Below, one piece after another: positions 7,697 through 53,726 of a DNA stretch of 64,000 nucleotides. The position numbers were made by a program, and so were the translations under genes. Location of the stretch: positions 56,978,001-57,042,000 of the forward strand of contig JANJGN010000022.1 in the NCBI GenBank assembly GCA_026770705.1. The letters run 5' to 3'. This DNA is from Isurus oxyrinchus (taxonomy: Eukaryota). The notes below the pieces were generated by a model. It made no database searches, was not told where the DNA came from, and saw only the letters and a program-made list of their open reading frames with translations. Within the stretch, counting starts at the first letter, position 1, and every line of letters begins with the position of its first letter.

Positions 7697-8202
7697 TGTT
7701 AAATAGTTCTGTGTCTAATAATATGAGTCTGTGTACTATTGATGCTCACTGTGCTTGATTAGTTAAGCCTGGGAGTGGATTCAGAGTAAAGTAAACAAAG
7801 CTGCTAGAAAGAGCTAGAAACAAAAACAAAAATAGCTGAAAAAGCTCAGCAGGTCTGATAGCATCTGTGGAGAGGAACACAGTTAATTGATTCCTCATGA
7901 CTCTTCATCAGAACTATGGAAATAGAGAAATGATGAAAAGTCATGTGGCCTTGAAACGTCAGCTGTGTTCCTCTCTGCAGATGCTGTCAGACCTGCTGAG
8001 TTTTTCCAGCTATTTTTGTTTTTGTTTCAGATTTCCAGCATCTGCAGTATTTTGCTTTTAAGAAAGAGCTAGAAGTTGAGAGCTGCAAGCATGGAGTAGA
8101 CATGTTAAAGCATTGGACAAAACTCTTATAAGTAAAGTTCCCACACAAGTAGAAACTGATGCATCATCTCTGCATATCTCTGATGCATTTAAAATATACA
8201 AC
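7697..8202. mobile_element. Probable solo LTR inserted in the Harbinger Myb exon
   Basis: AT-rich block bounded by TGTTA...CAACA. It splits the Myb/SANT reading frame between NARTQTP and CSKKFNNL. Confidence 0.5.
7820..8060. mobile_element. Palindromic Penelope-end-derived mini-element with degenerate HHR motifs
   Basis: Inverted arms ctcagcaggtctg..cagacctgctgag. Perfect 14-bp TSD AGAAAGAGCTAGAA at 7806-7819 and 8061-8074. Confidence 0.85.
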
Positions 8203-18797: not shown

Positions 18798-18982
18798 CAA
18801 AAACAGAAAATGCAGGTAAATCTCAGCAGGTCTAACAGCATCTGTGGAGTTAAGGTTTCAAGTTCATATGACTCTTCTTCATCTGAAGAAGAATCATTCA
18901 CACTGGAAACCTTAACTCTGTTTCTCTCTCCACTTGCTGAGATTTTCCAGCATTTTCTGTTTTTGTTTCAGATTTCCAGCAT
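18798..18982. mobile_element. Degenerate palindromic Penelope-end mini-element
   Basis: Inverted arms (ctcagcaggtc / gctgagattttccagc) around ctgaagaagaatc...gaaaccttaact. Confidence 0.75.
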
Positions 18983-19180
18983 TGTCATTCGTTATTTGAA
19001 TTGTTACTCGAATTGTTATTTGCTATTTCTTTGTAACTAGTAGCTCCCACGATTCAAGAGGAGACATCATCGATGCAAACGTGTATTCAATTGACAGTGC
19101 CTTTGTTGGGTCAGGCCCATCCCATCAACTTTGGCATATGGCAGCACCTGCCAGTGCAAAAGCAGCAGGGTTTCTATTAA

Positions 19181-19325
19181 TATAAAATAAAATACTGCAG
19201 ATGCTGGAAATCTAGAACAAAAACAAAAATACCTGGAAAAACTCAGCAGGTCTGACAGCATCTGCGGAGGGGGAGACAGTTGACATTTTGAGTCCGTACG
19301 ACCCTTCATCAGAACTAAGACATAA
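19181..19325 (-). mobile_element. Single Penelope 3'-end copy with HHR-like motif
   Basis: The minus strand reads AGTT-CTGATGA-A-GGGTC-GTACG-GACTC-AAAAT-GTC-AACT. 11-bp TSD GTTTCTATTAA at 19170-19180 and 19326-19336. Confidence 0.85.
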
Positions 19326-25000: not shown

Positions 25001-25154
25001 AATTGTATGCCAGTAATGTAGAGATCACAGTATACCATGTTTTTTCTTCTGATTTCTAGCATCCACGGTATTTTGCTTTTATTTTATGTCAGATTATAAG
25101 ATCCTTTATACTTATAAGGTACAATCCAAAAATTTTAACTCAAGGCATTTTACA

Positions 25155-42458: not shown

Positions 42459-42550
42459 AATTACTAACAAGGCCCCGAAATTTTTTTACGCAACAGGAAG
42501 CTGATCACTTTGTGTTGCATTTAGCCTTGCCCAACATCCTAACCCTCAGA

Positions 42551-42788
42551 TAAAAGCAAAATACTGCGGATGCTGGAAATCTGAAACAAAAACAAAAATT
42601 GCTGGAAAATCTCAGCAGGTCTGACAGCATCTGTGGAGAGGAAGACAGAGTTAATGTTTTGAGTCCCTATGACTCTCCTTCAGAACTTCTGATGAAGAAT
42701 CATACAGACTCGAAACGTTAACTCTGTCTTCCTCTCCACAGATGCTGTCAGACCTGCTGAGTTTTTCCAGCAAATTTTGTTTTTGATT
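42551..42788. mobile_element. Palindromic Penelope-end mini-element with HHR motifs
   Basis: Inverted arms of ~100 bp. TSD ctaaccctcaga (42539-42550) / ctaactctcaga (42789-42800). Confidence 0.88.
42685..42723 (+). ncRNA. Minimal type I hammerhead ribozyme-like motif
   Basis: CUGAUGA-A-GAAUC/AUACA/GACUC-GAAAC-GUU-AACU. The canonical core is intact and stem II has one mismatch. Confidence 0.6.
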
Positions 42789-44442: not shown

Positions 44443-44682
44443 ACCCGCCCCCTCCCCCCCACCCCCCCCACCTCCCCCCCCACCTCCCCCCCACCTCCCC
44501 CCCCCACCCCCCCCACCTCCCCCCCGCACCTCCCCCCCACCTCCCCCCCACACCCCCCCCAACCCCCCCCCCCACCCCCCCCACCTCCCCCCCACCTCCC
44601 CCCCACCCCCCCACCTCCCCCCCCACCCCCCCAACCTCCCCCCCACCTCCCCACCCCCCACCCCCTCCCCCCTCCCCCCACC
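44443..44682. repeat. C-rich low-complexity tract, (CCACCTC4-7)-like, G-quadruplex-prone on the - strand
   Basis: About 240 bp of C-runs separated by a, acct or g. It is the source of the spurious Pro/Gly ORFs. Confidence 0.9.
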
Positions 44683-44821
44683 AACAACTAAGTTGGGCTT
44701 AGTGAATCTGGCATCTGGAACCAACCTTTGGAATTGTGAATTGTGCTGGATGGAATGACTGGAATCATCGCTCTAAAGAAAACGTACTTCAAATGCACCT
44801 GCAGAAAACAGATAGCATTAC

Positions 44822-44975
44822 TCTGAAGAAGAGTCCTATGGATTCTGAAGGAATACAGACTTGAAACGCTAACTCTTGTTTCTCTCTCCACAGATGCTGC
44901 CAGACCTGTTGAGAGTTTTTCCAGCATTTTCTGTTTCCATTTCAGATTTCCAGCAACCACAATGTTTTGCTTCTA
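44822..44975 (+). mobile_element. Penelope 3'-end copy with a rearranged HHR-like motif
   Basis: ctgaagaagagtc...gacttgaaacgctaact followed by cagatgctgccagacctg...gatttccagca. Confidence 0.75.
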
Positions 44976-45422
44976 TTAAGATACTCCCTTTTTTGTCAAA
45001 TGTACAGGCTTCATTCTTAAAACAGACAAATTTATGCAAATATTGTACCGGTTTCATTATACTGCAGCTTGGCATGTGTTTAGTGTAACACCGGGCTGGC
45101 AAAGTTGAACTGCACTGTCATGGAAGAACGAGTACGGTTAGCACTATAGATTGGAGACTTAATAACATCAGCCAATATCGTCAGTGCACATTTCTAACTT
45201 AGCAACCTTGGAATTTCATCTTCTTAAACACCTGACGGTGGTACCTCTTTAAGTACCAGTTTACTGCATGGAGCTGCAAACTATTCAGCAGGATAACATT
45301 CATAAATTCAATGTGCCTGTACTGCCTGAAGGTTTTCTTTATTTTAATGAAAAATGGTGGAGCTTTGATTAAACTGGCTCCAGTTAAATTTTGACGACTC
45401 TCTCTCTCTCTCTCTTTTCAAG

Positions 45423-48608: not shown

Positions 48609-48610
48609 CA

Positions 48611-50175
48611 AGGCAAATCATGTTAAACCAATTTATTGGAGTTCTTTAAAGAAGTAACATGTGCTGTAGATAAAGGGGAGCGGTGGATGTACTGTACTTA
48701 GATTTTCAGAAGCCATTTGCTAAAGTGGCACATCAAAGGTTATTGCAGAAAATAAAAGTTCATGGTGCAGAGGGTGACATATTGGTATGGAGAGAAGATT
48801 GGCTAGTTAACAGGAAGCAGACAGTAGGCATAAAAGGCTCATTTTCTGGTTGGCAGAATGTGATGATTGGTGTGCCACAGGGATCAGTGCTGGGGCCGCA
48901 ACTCTTTTAAACTACAATTTATATAAATGACTTGGATGAAGGGACCAAATAAATTTGCTGATGACACAAAGATAGGTAGGAAAGTAAGTTGTGAAGAGGA
49001 CATAAGGAGGTTACAAAGGGATGTAGATATGTTCAGTGAGTGGGCAAAGATCTGGAAAATAGAGTATAATGTGGGAAAATGTGAAATTGTCCATTTTGAC
49101 AGGAAGAATAAAAGAGAAGCATATTATCTAAATGGTGAGAGATTGCAGAGCTCTGAGATGCAGAGGGATCTGGGTGTCCTAGTGCATGAATCACAAAAGG
49201 TTAGTATGCAGGTACAGGAAGTAATTAGGATGGTTAATAGAATTTTATCCAAAACAGAATTACCTGGAAAAACTCAGCAGGTCTTGCAGCATCGGCGGAG
49301 AAGAAAAGAGTTGACGTTTTGAGTCCTCATGACCCTTCGACCGAACTGAGTTGACGTTTCGAGTCCTCATGACCCTTCGACCGAACTGAGTTTGGTCGAA
49401 GGGTCATGAGGACTCGAAACGTCAACTCAGTTCGGTCGAAGGGTCATGAGGACTTGAAACGTCAACTCTTTTCTTCTCCACCGATGCTGCCAGACCTGCT
49501 GAGTTTTCCCCAGGTAATTCTGTTTTTGTTTTGGATTTCCAGCATCTGCAGTTTTTTTGTTTTTATCAATAGAATTTTATCGTTTACTGTGAAGGGAATT
49601 GAATACAAAAGTAGGGAGATTATACTTCAGTTATACAGGGCATTGGTGAGACCACACCTGGAGTACTGTGTACAATATTGGTCTCCCTATTTAAGGAAGG
49701 ATATAAATGTATTGGAAGCAGTTCAGAGAAGGTTTACTAGATTAATACCAAGGACCTTGGGATTCTTGTCTCCACTGAAGTTTAGAAGAGTAAGAGGTGA
49801 CTTGATTGAAACATATAAGGTCCTGAGGGGCCTTGACAAGGTGGATGTGGAGATGATGTTTCCTCTTGTGGGAGAATCTAGAACTGGGGGGTCACTGTTT
49901 AAAAATAAGGGATCGCCCATTTAAGACAATGATGAGAGAATGTTTTTCTCTCAGAGGGTGGTGAGTCTTTGGAACTCTCTTCCCCAAAAGGAGGCGGAAG
50001 CAGAGTCTTTGAATATTTTTAAGGCAACGGTAGAAAGATTCATGATAAACTAAGGGGTGAAAGGCTATGGGGTTGGGCGGGAATGTCGAGTTGAGGTTAC
50101 AATTAGATCAGCTATGAATTATTGAATGGCGGAGCAGACTCAAAGTGCTTTACTCCTGCTCCTAATTCATACGTT
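48611..50175 (+). mobile_element. CR1 LINE 3' fragment (RT domain to tail)
   Basis: VDVLYLDFQK, GVPQGSVLGP, KFADDTKIG and LYRALVRPHLEYCVQYWSP. Interrupted by the insertion at 49250-49567. Confidence 0.93.
49250..49567. mobile_element. Palindromic Penelope-end mini-element with four 40-nt HHR-like units
   Basis: Perfect 14-bp TSD AATAGAATTTTATC (49236-49249 and 49568-49581). Units at 49308-49347 and 49348-49387 (-), and 49389-49428 and 49429-49468 (+), with a 1-nt centre at 49388. Confidence 0.92.
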
Positions 50176-50999
50176 TGTCGACATGCAGTCATTCTACATT
50201 TATACTGAAGTCACCCAGCTTACCTCTTCACCATATATCACCCAACCCCTACACCCCCCAGGATGAGTTACAAGAGGAAGCCTGAAGTCATTAACTTCAG
50301 CCCCTGATGCACACCATCGATCCCATCCTATTCTTCACATGCAAGCCTTGACGATGAGGAGGAGAAAGGTGTATTGTTGTTAAATATGGGTGAATGCCAA
50401 TACCATGAGAACAAGAGAATAATATTGAAAATGAGAGTGATGGGAAATCTTTGATGATCACTCAATCTTTAATTGTAGAACAAAATTTTGGCACTTTTGA
50501 AAATCAAGGAGACTAATTTCAGTGGGATTTCTGATTGGTATGCTCAACTGTTGCACTGTGATCTGTAATAATACATAAGGCAGCTCTGTAATAACACACA
50601 ACACATTATTTAAACTATGTTTGCAATTTAAGTGCCTTGACAGTCCCTTTGAATCAATTTGGCAAGTTGCACAGAGCACCTCATCCCGATGGTCCAAGCA
50701 GGAACTTTCAAATCTATTTGTTTTAGGAAGACTGTCATTTCCTTGATCTGCTGACCACCCAAAGGTCAGAATCTTTTTGTACTTGAATCACCCATTACCT
50801 CCTAGCTGATGTTAAAAGATGCCCAGGAGTGTTCCCAGATAGATTTGTTTATAAAACAGTTAAAGATGGTTCCAATTTGCAGTCATATATAGGTATTTCT
50901 AACCAAAGCTTTTCTTTCCTAACTTTTCAAAATAATAATTAGAATTGGATCCGTAAATCCAGACATTGTAACCATTTATTACACTTGGAAACTCTCACC

Positions 51000-51650: not shown

Positions 51651-52159
51651 TAGCGGAACGTCACTTTAAAATGTTAACTTTACAGATTCTCCTTTCTGAA
51701 GAGTTCATTAAGAGTTTTCTATTGATACCCAGTTACTTCGATGAATATTTCCATTGATACTCACCTCTGTCTACATAGATTTGAAGAGTGAACTTGCACG
51801 TATTTGTTTGAGGCCTTAAATCAATGTTGTTTTTTCAAATATATTACATGTTACATGCTTTCTCGTAAAAGTTTCACTTTTACATGTGGAACAATCTTGT
51901 GAATGATATAATTTGCATTGAAAATTGGAAGGAATGAGGGAATGAGTGAAGAAACAAAATTGAACAGTAAAAGGTTGTGAACTGCAGCAACAAACATGGA
52001 ATAAAATGTGCATCTCAGTGGCCTGTGCATGTATGGGGTCATTTTCTCCATTTGCATTCAAACATTGCCCCTAAACTCCCCCTACTGGCTGATAGTGGGA
52101 ATGAATTCCTGTTCTTTCTACGGTGTGGATCTTCCTGGCGAAGGAAGGGGTTGTCTGAT

Positions 52160-53726
52160 AAAAACAAAAAAAACTGCGGATGCTGGAAATCCAAAACAAA
52201 AACAGAATTACCTGGAAAAACTCAGCAGGTCCGGCAGCATCGGCGGAGAAGAAAAGAGTTGATGTTTCGAGTCCTCATGACCCTTCGACAGAACTTGAGT
52301 GAGTCCAAGAAAGGGGTGAAATATAAGCTGGTTTAAGGTGTGTTGGGGGGGGGGGTTGGGGGGGAGGTGGGGTTTGGGTGGGGGGAGAGAGAGAGAAGTG
52401 GAGGGGGGGTCTGGTTGTAGGGACAAACAAGCAGTGATAGAAGCAGATCATCAAAAGATGTCACAAACAACAGAACAAAAGAACACATAGGTGTTAAAGT
52501 TGGTGATATTATCTAAACGAATGTGCTAATTAAGAATGGATGGTAGGGCACTCAAGGTACAGCTCTAGTGGGGGTGGGGGGAGCATAAAAGATTTTAAAA
52601 TATTTAAAAATAATGGAAATAGGTGGGAAAAGAAAAATCTATATAATTTATTAGAAAAAAACAAAAGGAAGGGGGAAACAGAAAGTGGGTGGGGATGGAG
52701 GAGGGAGCTCACAACCTAAAGTTGTTGAATTCAATATTCAGTCCGGAAGGCTGTAAAGTGCCTAGTCGGAAGATGAGGTGTTGTTCCTCCAGTTTGCGTT
52801 GGGCTTCACTGGAACAATGCAGCAAGCCAAGGACAGACATGTGGGCAAGAGAGCAGGGTGGAGTGTTAAAATGGCAAGCGACAGGGAGGTTTGGGTTATT
52901 CTTGCGGACAGACCGCAGGTGTTCTGCAAAGCGGTCGCCCAGTTTACGTTTGGTCTCTCCAATGTAGAGGAGACCACACTGGGAGCAACAAATACTAAGT
53001 TGGGGGAAATGCAAGTGAAATGCTGCTTCACTTGAAAGGAGTGTTTGGGCCCTTGGACGGTGAGGAGAGAGGAAGTGAAGGGGCAGGTGTTGCATCTTTT
53101 GCGTGGGCATGGGGTGGTGCCATAGGAGGGGGTTGAGGAGAAGGGGGTGATGGAGGAGTGGACCAGGGTGACCTGGAGGGAACGATCCCTATGGAATGCC
53201 GATAGGGGGGGTGAAGGGAAGCTGTGTTTGGTGGTGGCATCATGCTGGAGTTGGCGGAAATGGCGGAGGATGATCCTTTGAATGCGGAGGCTGGTGGAGT
53301 GATAAGTGAGGACAAGGGGGACCCTATCATGTTTCTGGGAGGGAGGAGAAGGCGTGAGGGCGGATGCGTGGGAGATGGGCCGGACACGATTGAGGGCCCT
53401 GTCAACCACTGTGGGTGGAAAACCTCGGTTAAGGAAGAAGGAGGACATGTCAGAGGAATTGTTTTTGAAGGTAGCATCATCGGAACAGATGTGACGGAGG
53501 CGAAGGAACTGAGAGAATGGGATGGAGTCCTTACAGGAAGCGGGGTGTGAGGAGCTGTAGTCGAGGTAGCTGTGGGAGTCGGTGGGTTTGTAGTGGATAT
53601 TGGTGGACAGTCTATCACCAGAGATTGAGACAGAGAGGTCAAGGAAGGGAAGGGAAGTGTCAGAGATGGACCACGTGAAAATGATGGAGGGGTGGAGATT
53701 GGAAGCAAAATTAATAAATTAATAAA
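52160..53726 (-). mobile_element. Penelope-like retroelement, 5'-truncated (RT C-terminus, GIY-YIG endonuclease, HHR-bearing 3' end)
   Basis: CSQCGLLYIGETKRKLGDRFAEH...PVACHFN...RKLEEQHLIFRLGTLQPSGLNIEF and FLNRGFP..RVPLVLTYH. TSD TTGTCTGAT at 52151-52159 and 53727-53735. Confidence 0.95.
52257..52295 (-). ncRNA. Minimal hammerhead-like motif with variant core CUGUCGA
   Basis: AGUU-CUGUCGA-A-GGGUC/AUGAG/GACUC-GAAAC-AUC-AACU, with stem I formed by AGUU/AACU. Confidence 0.5.

What the first reader, a model, noticed from the sequence alone, without database searches (positions are those of the whole stretch)
49250..49567. Palindromic mini-retroelement carrying a tandem dimer of a minimal hammerhead unit on each strand
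Seen: a 318-bp insertion in a CR1 with a perfect 14-bp TSD. It is a near-perfect palindrome with a 1-nt centre at 49388. Exactly one 40-nt unit, AGTT-CGGTCGA-A-GGGTC-ATGAG-GACTC-GAAAC-GTC-AACT-C, is duplicated on each arm. The duplication boundaries coincide with the ends of the putative stem I (AGUU/AACU), and all differences between units are C>T at CpG. Known: Penelope elements carry minimal type I hammerheads whose helix III is too short for a monomer and which are thought to cleave as dimers through a palindromic loop (here ACGU). Inference: the duplication would supply the dimer partner in cis, on transcripts from either strand, resembling a retrozyme-like non-coding unit mobilised by Penelope proteins. 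Caveats: the core is CGGUCGA rather than the canonical CUGANGA, so it may be inactive, and the long palindrome could mask the fold.
Basis: partly seen in the sequence, partly recalled or inferred. Interest (0 to 1): 0.8.

Follow-up and report, generated by a model that had tools for sequence, protein, structure and literature searches.

The report
Palindromic Penelope end, doubled broken ribozyme
This is an ordinary back-to-back insertion of a Penelope retrotransposon's end, probably in a shark, in which a short, probably inactive self-cutting RNA motif was most likely doubled by a copying slip.

Summary
The insert is the 3' end (hammerhead, downstream segment, 40-nt tail) of a Penelope-like element; a same-subfamily copy with RT and GIY-YIG remains lies 2.6 kb away. 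Head-to-head insertion with one tailed and one tailless arm is published Penelope behaviour and occurs at 4 of 8 family loci in this window, always centred near the hammerhead start. Only the tandem and a U4G core change are private (1 of 8 loci). The tandem is 2x40+5 nt: the palindrome centre plus the self-complementary stem I create a 5-nt direct repeat exactly 40 nt apart, so slippage explains the boundaries. All four units carry two core changes (U4G, A6U), three carry further CpG damage, the dimer fold is about 10-12 kcal/mol above the best fold, and read-through from either strand makes the antisense arm first. Other tandem copies genome-wide could not be searched.

The parts
49236..49249 (+). 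Left copy of 14-bp target site duplication
49250..49387 (-). Inverted, tailless Penelope pLTR-end arm (two hammerhead units plus downstream segment)
   Evidence: 94% to 52199-52300
49308..49347 (-). Hammerhead unit L2: U4G, A6U, and G12A by CpG decay
49348..49387 (-). Hammerhead unit L1: U4G, A6U; least damaged unit
49384..49392 (.). Palindrome centre (1-nt centre 49388); on the minus strand it is identical to the tandem junction and supplies the 5-nt microhomology
49389..49428 (+). Hammerhead unit R1: U4G, A6U, and C3U by CpG decay
49429..49468 (+). Hammerhead unit R2: U4G, A6U, and C11.1U by CpG decay
49469..49527 (+). Downstream pLTR segment of the right arm
49528..49567 (+). 40-nt Penelope tail, present on this arm only
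   Evidence: tail described in PMC8557442 and PMC11167929
49568..49581 (+). Right copy of target site duplication
48610..50178 (+). Interrupted host LINE (CR1-like RT and 3' end), approximate limits
52157..53726 (-). Same-subfamily 5'-truncated Penelope-like element: RT C-terminal part, CX4CXXC linker, GIY-YIG nuclease (frameshift near 52990), pLTR with one hammerhead (A6U only), tail, 6-9 bp TSD

Best explanation
A dead Penelope-like retrotransposition product. Shown: the insert consists only of the element's 3' end, once with and once without the tail, joined head to head at the hammerhead start, with a TSD. Inferred: the RT/GIY-YIG protein nicked both target strands and primed cDNA at its two internal start sites; synthesis ended at the hammerhead's 5' edge, where stem I complementarity gives a 9-nt quasi-palindrome. 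The copying slipped once between two 5-nt repeats 40 nt apart, doubling the unit, and fold-back or annealing of the two cDNAs mirrored it into both arms (the slip may already have been in the source copy). The template carried U4G on top of the subfamily's A6U. The units have since decayed independently at CpG. Any read-through RNA forms a roughly 138-bp hairpin, not a ribozyme.
For: Same-subfamily ORF-bearing copy with a single hammerhead. 4 of 8 family loci are head-to-head, 4 of 4 with a tail on one arm only, all centred within about 15 nt of the hammerhead start. Same architecture published (PMC3846280; PMC8557442); both-strand nicking and two start sites shown in vitro, and hammerhead mutants did not reduce insertion (PMC11167929). 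Periodicity extends exactly 5 nt beyond two units. U4 kept in 8 of 8 other units and 0 of 4 here. All single and double mutants in the CUGA turn except the C:G swap had low activity in a mutational scan of a type III hammerhead (PMC9901934). Dimer fold -4.9 to -7.5 versus best fold -15.2 and -19.0 kcal/mol; helix II probability 0 in full transcripts of both strands. None of 3 CpG changes is shared between units or arms, so doubling and mirroring were early.
Against: No genome-wide search was possible, so a sub-lineage carrying the tandem is not excluded. The slippage and fold-back steps are inferred from one locus. The same 5-nt overhang is what a transcript cut at a third unit's cleavage site would leave. 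Penelope hammerheads can be protein-assisted, and the A6U subfamily evidently transposed, so core rules and nearest-neighbour energies may understate activity. The paper on Penelope hammerhead variants (Luense et al.) was not available.
Confidence: 0.7

Rival explanations
1. Same origin, later timing: a plain one-unit palindrome inserted, then replication slippage doubled one arm and arm-to-arm template switching copied it to the other.
For: The 5-nt repeat needed for slippage exists in any such one-unit palindrome; both junctions carry the minus-strand centre base, as expected if one arm was copied from the other.
Against: Needs two rare DNA events; no CpG change is shared between copies (0 of 3), so both must have followed insertion closely.
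Confidence: 0.13
2. The template came from a source array of three or more 40-nt hammerhead units that self-cleaved; the RNA began at the cleavage site, and the insertion is a Penelope-mobilised offspring of a nascent mini-retrozyme.
For: The minus-strand array starts exactly where cleavage of an upstream unit would leave the 5' end. Tandem retrozymes are reported to derive from pLTRs (bioRxiv 10.64898/2026.07.22.740005). Dimer and trimer minimal hammerheads showed low cleavage (PMC4209133).
Against: Four of those five bases are forced by the palindrome; only one base is independent evidence. Doubly altered core in all units. Other short arms start at stem I, not at the cleavage site. No translated tandem found in three protein searches, which is weak evidence. 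Published retrozyme units are 51-972 bp.
Confidence: 0.1
3. One reading: a functional unit in which the tandem supplies the dimer partner in cis on transcripts of either strand.
For: Geometry allows one outer active site (4-bp helix I, shared 4-bp helix III); the palindromic helix III bases are intact in 4 of 4 units.
Against: On either strand the sense tandem follows its antisense copy and is fully sequestered. The inner helix I can form at most 3 bp. Undoing CpG decay and restoring U4 or the whole core in silico does not make the dimer fold the best fold. Three of four units have further damage.
Confidence: 0.04
4. The tandem or palindrome is a sequencing or assembly artefact.
For: Palindromes and tandem or inverted Penelope structures trouble assemblies; raw reads were not available.
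Against: Each unit and arm has its own CpG-type changes, the TSD is exact and the tail is on one side only, as in sibling loci.
Confidence: 0.03

Closest known systems
EN+ Penelope-like elements (Neptune/Nematis-type linker) with inverted pLTRs and tail
   Same: Head-to-head pLTR ends, palindromic junction, 30-40 bp tail at one end, 8-14 bp TSD, minimal hammerhead.
   Different: No ORF in the insert; hammerhead unit doubled with no spacer; core U4G/A6U.
Minimal type I Penelope hammerheads (Cervera and de la Pena 2014)
   Same: 4-bp helix I, extra base before helix II, G10.1-C11.1, palindromic helix III; opposite-strand pairs 100-700 bp apart were already noted.
   Different: Two core positions depart from CUGANGA; helix II is 5 bp.
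Animal non-LTR retrozymes
   Same: Head-to-tail hammerhead-bearing units derived from a pLTR, non-coding.
   Different: Unit 40 nt versus 51-972 bp and 170-400 nt circles; two units only; cores not intact; inside a palindrome; no evidence of expression, circles or multiple copies.

Membership tests
Penelope-like element insertion | Sequence is the pLTR end of an element encoding PLE RT and GIY-YIG nuclease | tested here: met
   93-94% to 52157-52300, attached to RT/EN remains 42-62% identical to RT and GIY-YIG bearing proteins; Pfam GIY-YIG E 0.0089, below cut-off
Penelope-like element insertion | Inverted pLTR with 30-40 bp tail on one end | tested here: met
Penelope-like element insertion | Target site duplication | tested here: met
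   14 bp exact, empty-site register confirmed
Neptune clade | CX2-5CxxC linker between RT and EN | tested here: met
   CX4CXXC in the neighbour; shared with Nematis
Neptune clade | RT phylogeny | not tested
   No tree built; no labelled references at hand
Minimal type I hammerhead | Helix I, helix II, GAAA, A15.1-U16.1, H17 in order | tested here: met
   Own descriptor with two core mismatches recovers L1 and R2; L2 lacks G12
Minimal type I hammerhead | CUGANGA core | tested here: not met
   0 of 4 units; canonical in 4 of 8 other units
Minimal type I hammerhead | Covariation support for helices | tested here: inconclusive
   87.7% paired versus at most 43.9% when slid, but 229 of 500 and 139 of 500 shuffles reach the observed values
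Rfam hammerhead families | Covariance model match | tested here: not met
   0 hits at gathering score in the window; no hammerhead among 13 matches at E up to 10 in 49200-49620
Minimal type I hammerhead | Self-cleavage as dimer | not testable with these tools
   Folding argues against
Non-LTR retrozyme | At least two consecutive units | tested here: met
Non-LTR retrozyme | Complete hammerhead motif in each unit | tested here: not met
   criterion
Non-LTR retrozyme | Multi-copy family, expressed as linear and circular monomers | not testable with these tools
   1 of 8 loci in the window; no eukaryote genome or RNA data

The most novel reading that the evidence does not exclude
The locus records the birth of a retrozyme from a Penelope end: slippage at the palindrome centre yields a 40-nt, ribozyme-only tandem unit, shorter than any in the vertebrate survey read, which forms a mobile sub-lineage and cleaves as a protein-assisted dimer despite a U4G/A6U core.
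Probability: 0.07. Interest if true: 0.7.

Novelty: new member of a known kind. Interest (0 to 1): 0.2.

Why it matters
As it stands it is a tidy example of Penelope insertion anatomy and suggests a concrete route (microhomology made by stem I and the fold-back centre) from a pLTR to a tandem hammerhead, the proposed first step toward retrozymes. It would matter more if the tandem proved to be a family or if a doubly non-canonical core cleaved.

Tried and rejected
Rfam: no hammerhead match; the microRNA-family matches are below their cut-offs and reflect the hairpin. Search for the translated tandem in protein sets: no candidate at near length; one longer hit covering a single unit only; two chance repeat proteins, rejected. 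One exact-pattern scan of bacterial and archaeal genomes: 0, uninformative for an animal repeat. Viral and metagenome contig collections stayed unchecked. Covariation test inconclusive. Pfam on 13 longer ORFs elsewhere in the window: 0 of 13 matched; no host gene identified. Slippage using the parent's own upstream sequence would give a 41-nt unit, not 40, so the palindrome centre is the better source of microhomology. Literature searches for a shark or palindromic tandem case returned nothing relevant; this library lacks most subscription papers, and Repbase/Dfam were not searched. Luense et al. was not held.

Full report
Observation. The sequence is as described. The 318-bp insert at 49250-49567 sits between exact 14-bp repeats, and both flanks align in register on 2 of 2 other copies of the host LINE tested. 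The arms match at 131 of 137 ungapped columns with one indel. Each arm has a period-40 array of 2.1 copies. The three differences among the four units are all CpG transitions and none is shared, which argues for real, aged DNA rather than an assembly artefact. The last 40 nt (49528-49567) have no mirror.

What it is. The insert is 93-94% identical to the end of an element at 52157-53726 on the minus strand. That element encodes the C-terminal RT region, a CX4CXXC linker and a frameshifted GIY-YIG nuclease, 42-62% identical to four RT-bearing proteins tested, one named from a bamboo shark. It has one hammerhead, with U4 intact and A6U. A great white shark RefSeq protein model contains a translation of the same subfamily's single unit with U4 intact, so the host is probably a shark; this is inference. 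A profile search finds eight family loci in the window. Four are head-to-head palindromes (7819-8061, 18798-about 18990, 42549-42788 and this one), each with the tail on one arm only and centred within about 15 nt of the hammerhead start; TSDs were found for three of the four. Inverted pLTRs, palindromic junctions and one-sided tails are published Penelope features (PMC3846280, passages; PMC8557442, passages). An anole element nicks and extends both target strands from two internal start sites that bound the tail, and hammerhead mutants did not affect insertion in vitro (PMC11167929, parts 1-2 of 4). Only the tandem and U4G are private to this locus (1 of 8 loci).

Why the boundaries match stem I. 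Five arms, including both here, lose homology exactly at the first base of stem I and the other five short arms start within about six model positions, so that edge is the family's usual 5' end. Because the two strands of stem I are complementary, joining two arms there puts a copy of the unit's last five bases directly upstream of the unit on the minus strand. The periodicity extends exactly those five bases, the usual signature of slippage at microhomology (established knowledge). The parent's own upstream sequence would give 41 nt. A transcript cut at a third unit would leave the same five bases, but four of them are forced by the palindrome, so this rival has one base of independent support.

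Can it cleave? U4 is kept in 8 of 8 other units aligned and 0 of 4 here; A6 is kept in 7 of 7 older units and lost in this subfamily. R1 also has C3U, R2 C11.1U and L2 G12A. My descriptor finds no canonical motif in the window, one with one core mismatch and three with up to two. In a complete mutational scan of a type III hammerhead, single and double changes in the CUGA turn had low activity except the C:G swap (PMC9901934, passages); A6C variants keep ion-dependent activity (PMC7151607, passages), so A6 alone is not decisive. In isolated 80-mers the dimer fold scores -4.9 to -7.5 kcal/mol against best folds of -15.2 and -19.0, and the inner helix I is limited to 3 bp. U4G makes a self-complementary 10-mer that competes (duplex -9.6 versus -3.7). 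Restoring the core in silico does not make the dimer the best fold. The full transcript is a -258.6 kcal/mol hairpin; on either strand the antisense arm is made first and helix II probability is zero. Against this reading: energy models ignore tertiary contacts, the anole ribozyme cleaved only with protein, and minimal dimers and trimers showed low cleavage (PMC4209133, parts 1-3 of 4; supplement not opened). Covariation across 12 units was inconclusive. Rfam gave no hammerhead match; that its models suit minimal motifs poorly is my recollection.

Comparison. It works like, and is, a Penelope pLTR-end insertion. It fails the retrozyme criterion of complete motifs in consecutive units, and its unit is shorter than the 51-972 bp reported for 35 genomes including one cartilaginous fish (bioRxiv 10.64898/2026.07.22.740005, parts 1-3 of 5; supplements unseen and may list shark families) and the 170-400 nt circles (PMC7229834, passages). 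Luense et al. on Penelope hammerhead variants is known here only through a review (PMC6765202, passages) and may bear on core variants.

Limits. No animal genome or reads could be searched. Protein-level searches for the translated tandem found no second copy, which is weak evidence. Six literature searches showed no report of this doubled form, within a library that lacks most subscription journals.

Verdict. A real but ordinary Penelope insertion with a local duplication of a probably dead ribozyme motif; interest 0.2. The open possibility is a mobile or active 40-nt-unit lineage (about 7%).

Noticed in passing
window 7819-8061, 18798-18990, 42549-42788: Three older head-to-head pLTR-end palindromes; in 42549-42788 the arms differ at 10 of 102 positions, 7 of them in the first 30 nt, suggesting two different RNA templates in one insertion.
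   Followed up: partly
window, ten short family arms: All start at or near the 5' edge of stem I and keep the hammerhead, instead of starting at its cleavage site; cause unknown (transcript start, RT stop, or a splice acceptor, as a pyrimidine tract precedes it at 52296-52320).
   Followed up: partly
P0037, P0040, P0041 (great white shark COMMD9 models): All three isoforms seen include about 28 residues translated from this Penelope hammerhead region, suggesting exonisation or a mis-annotation.
   Followed up: partly
window 44820-44976: Older single arm with an extra stretch of about 20 nt in the hammerhead that repeats the core start; possibly a partial duplication, support weak.
   Followed up: partly
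window 52157-53726: The subfamily with an A6U core has evidently transposed, consistent with cleavage being dispensable or with a tolerated variant.
   Followed up: partly
window 44444-44682: About 236-bp C-rich low-complexity tract.
   Followed up: no
window 19179-19325 and 25011-25080: Single pLTR-end insertion with 11-bp TSD, and a decayed tail fragment.
   Followed up: partly
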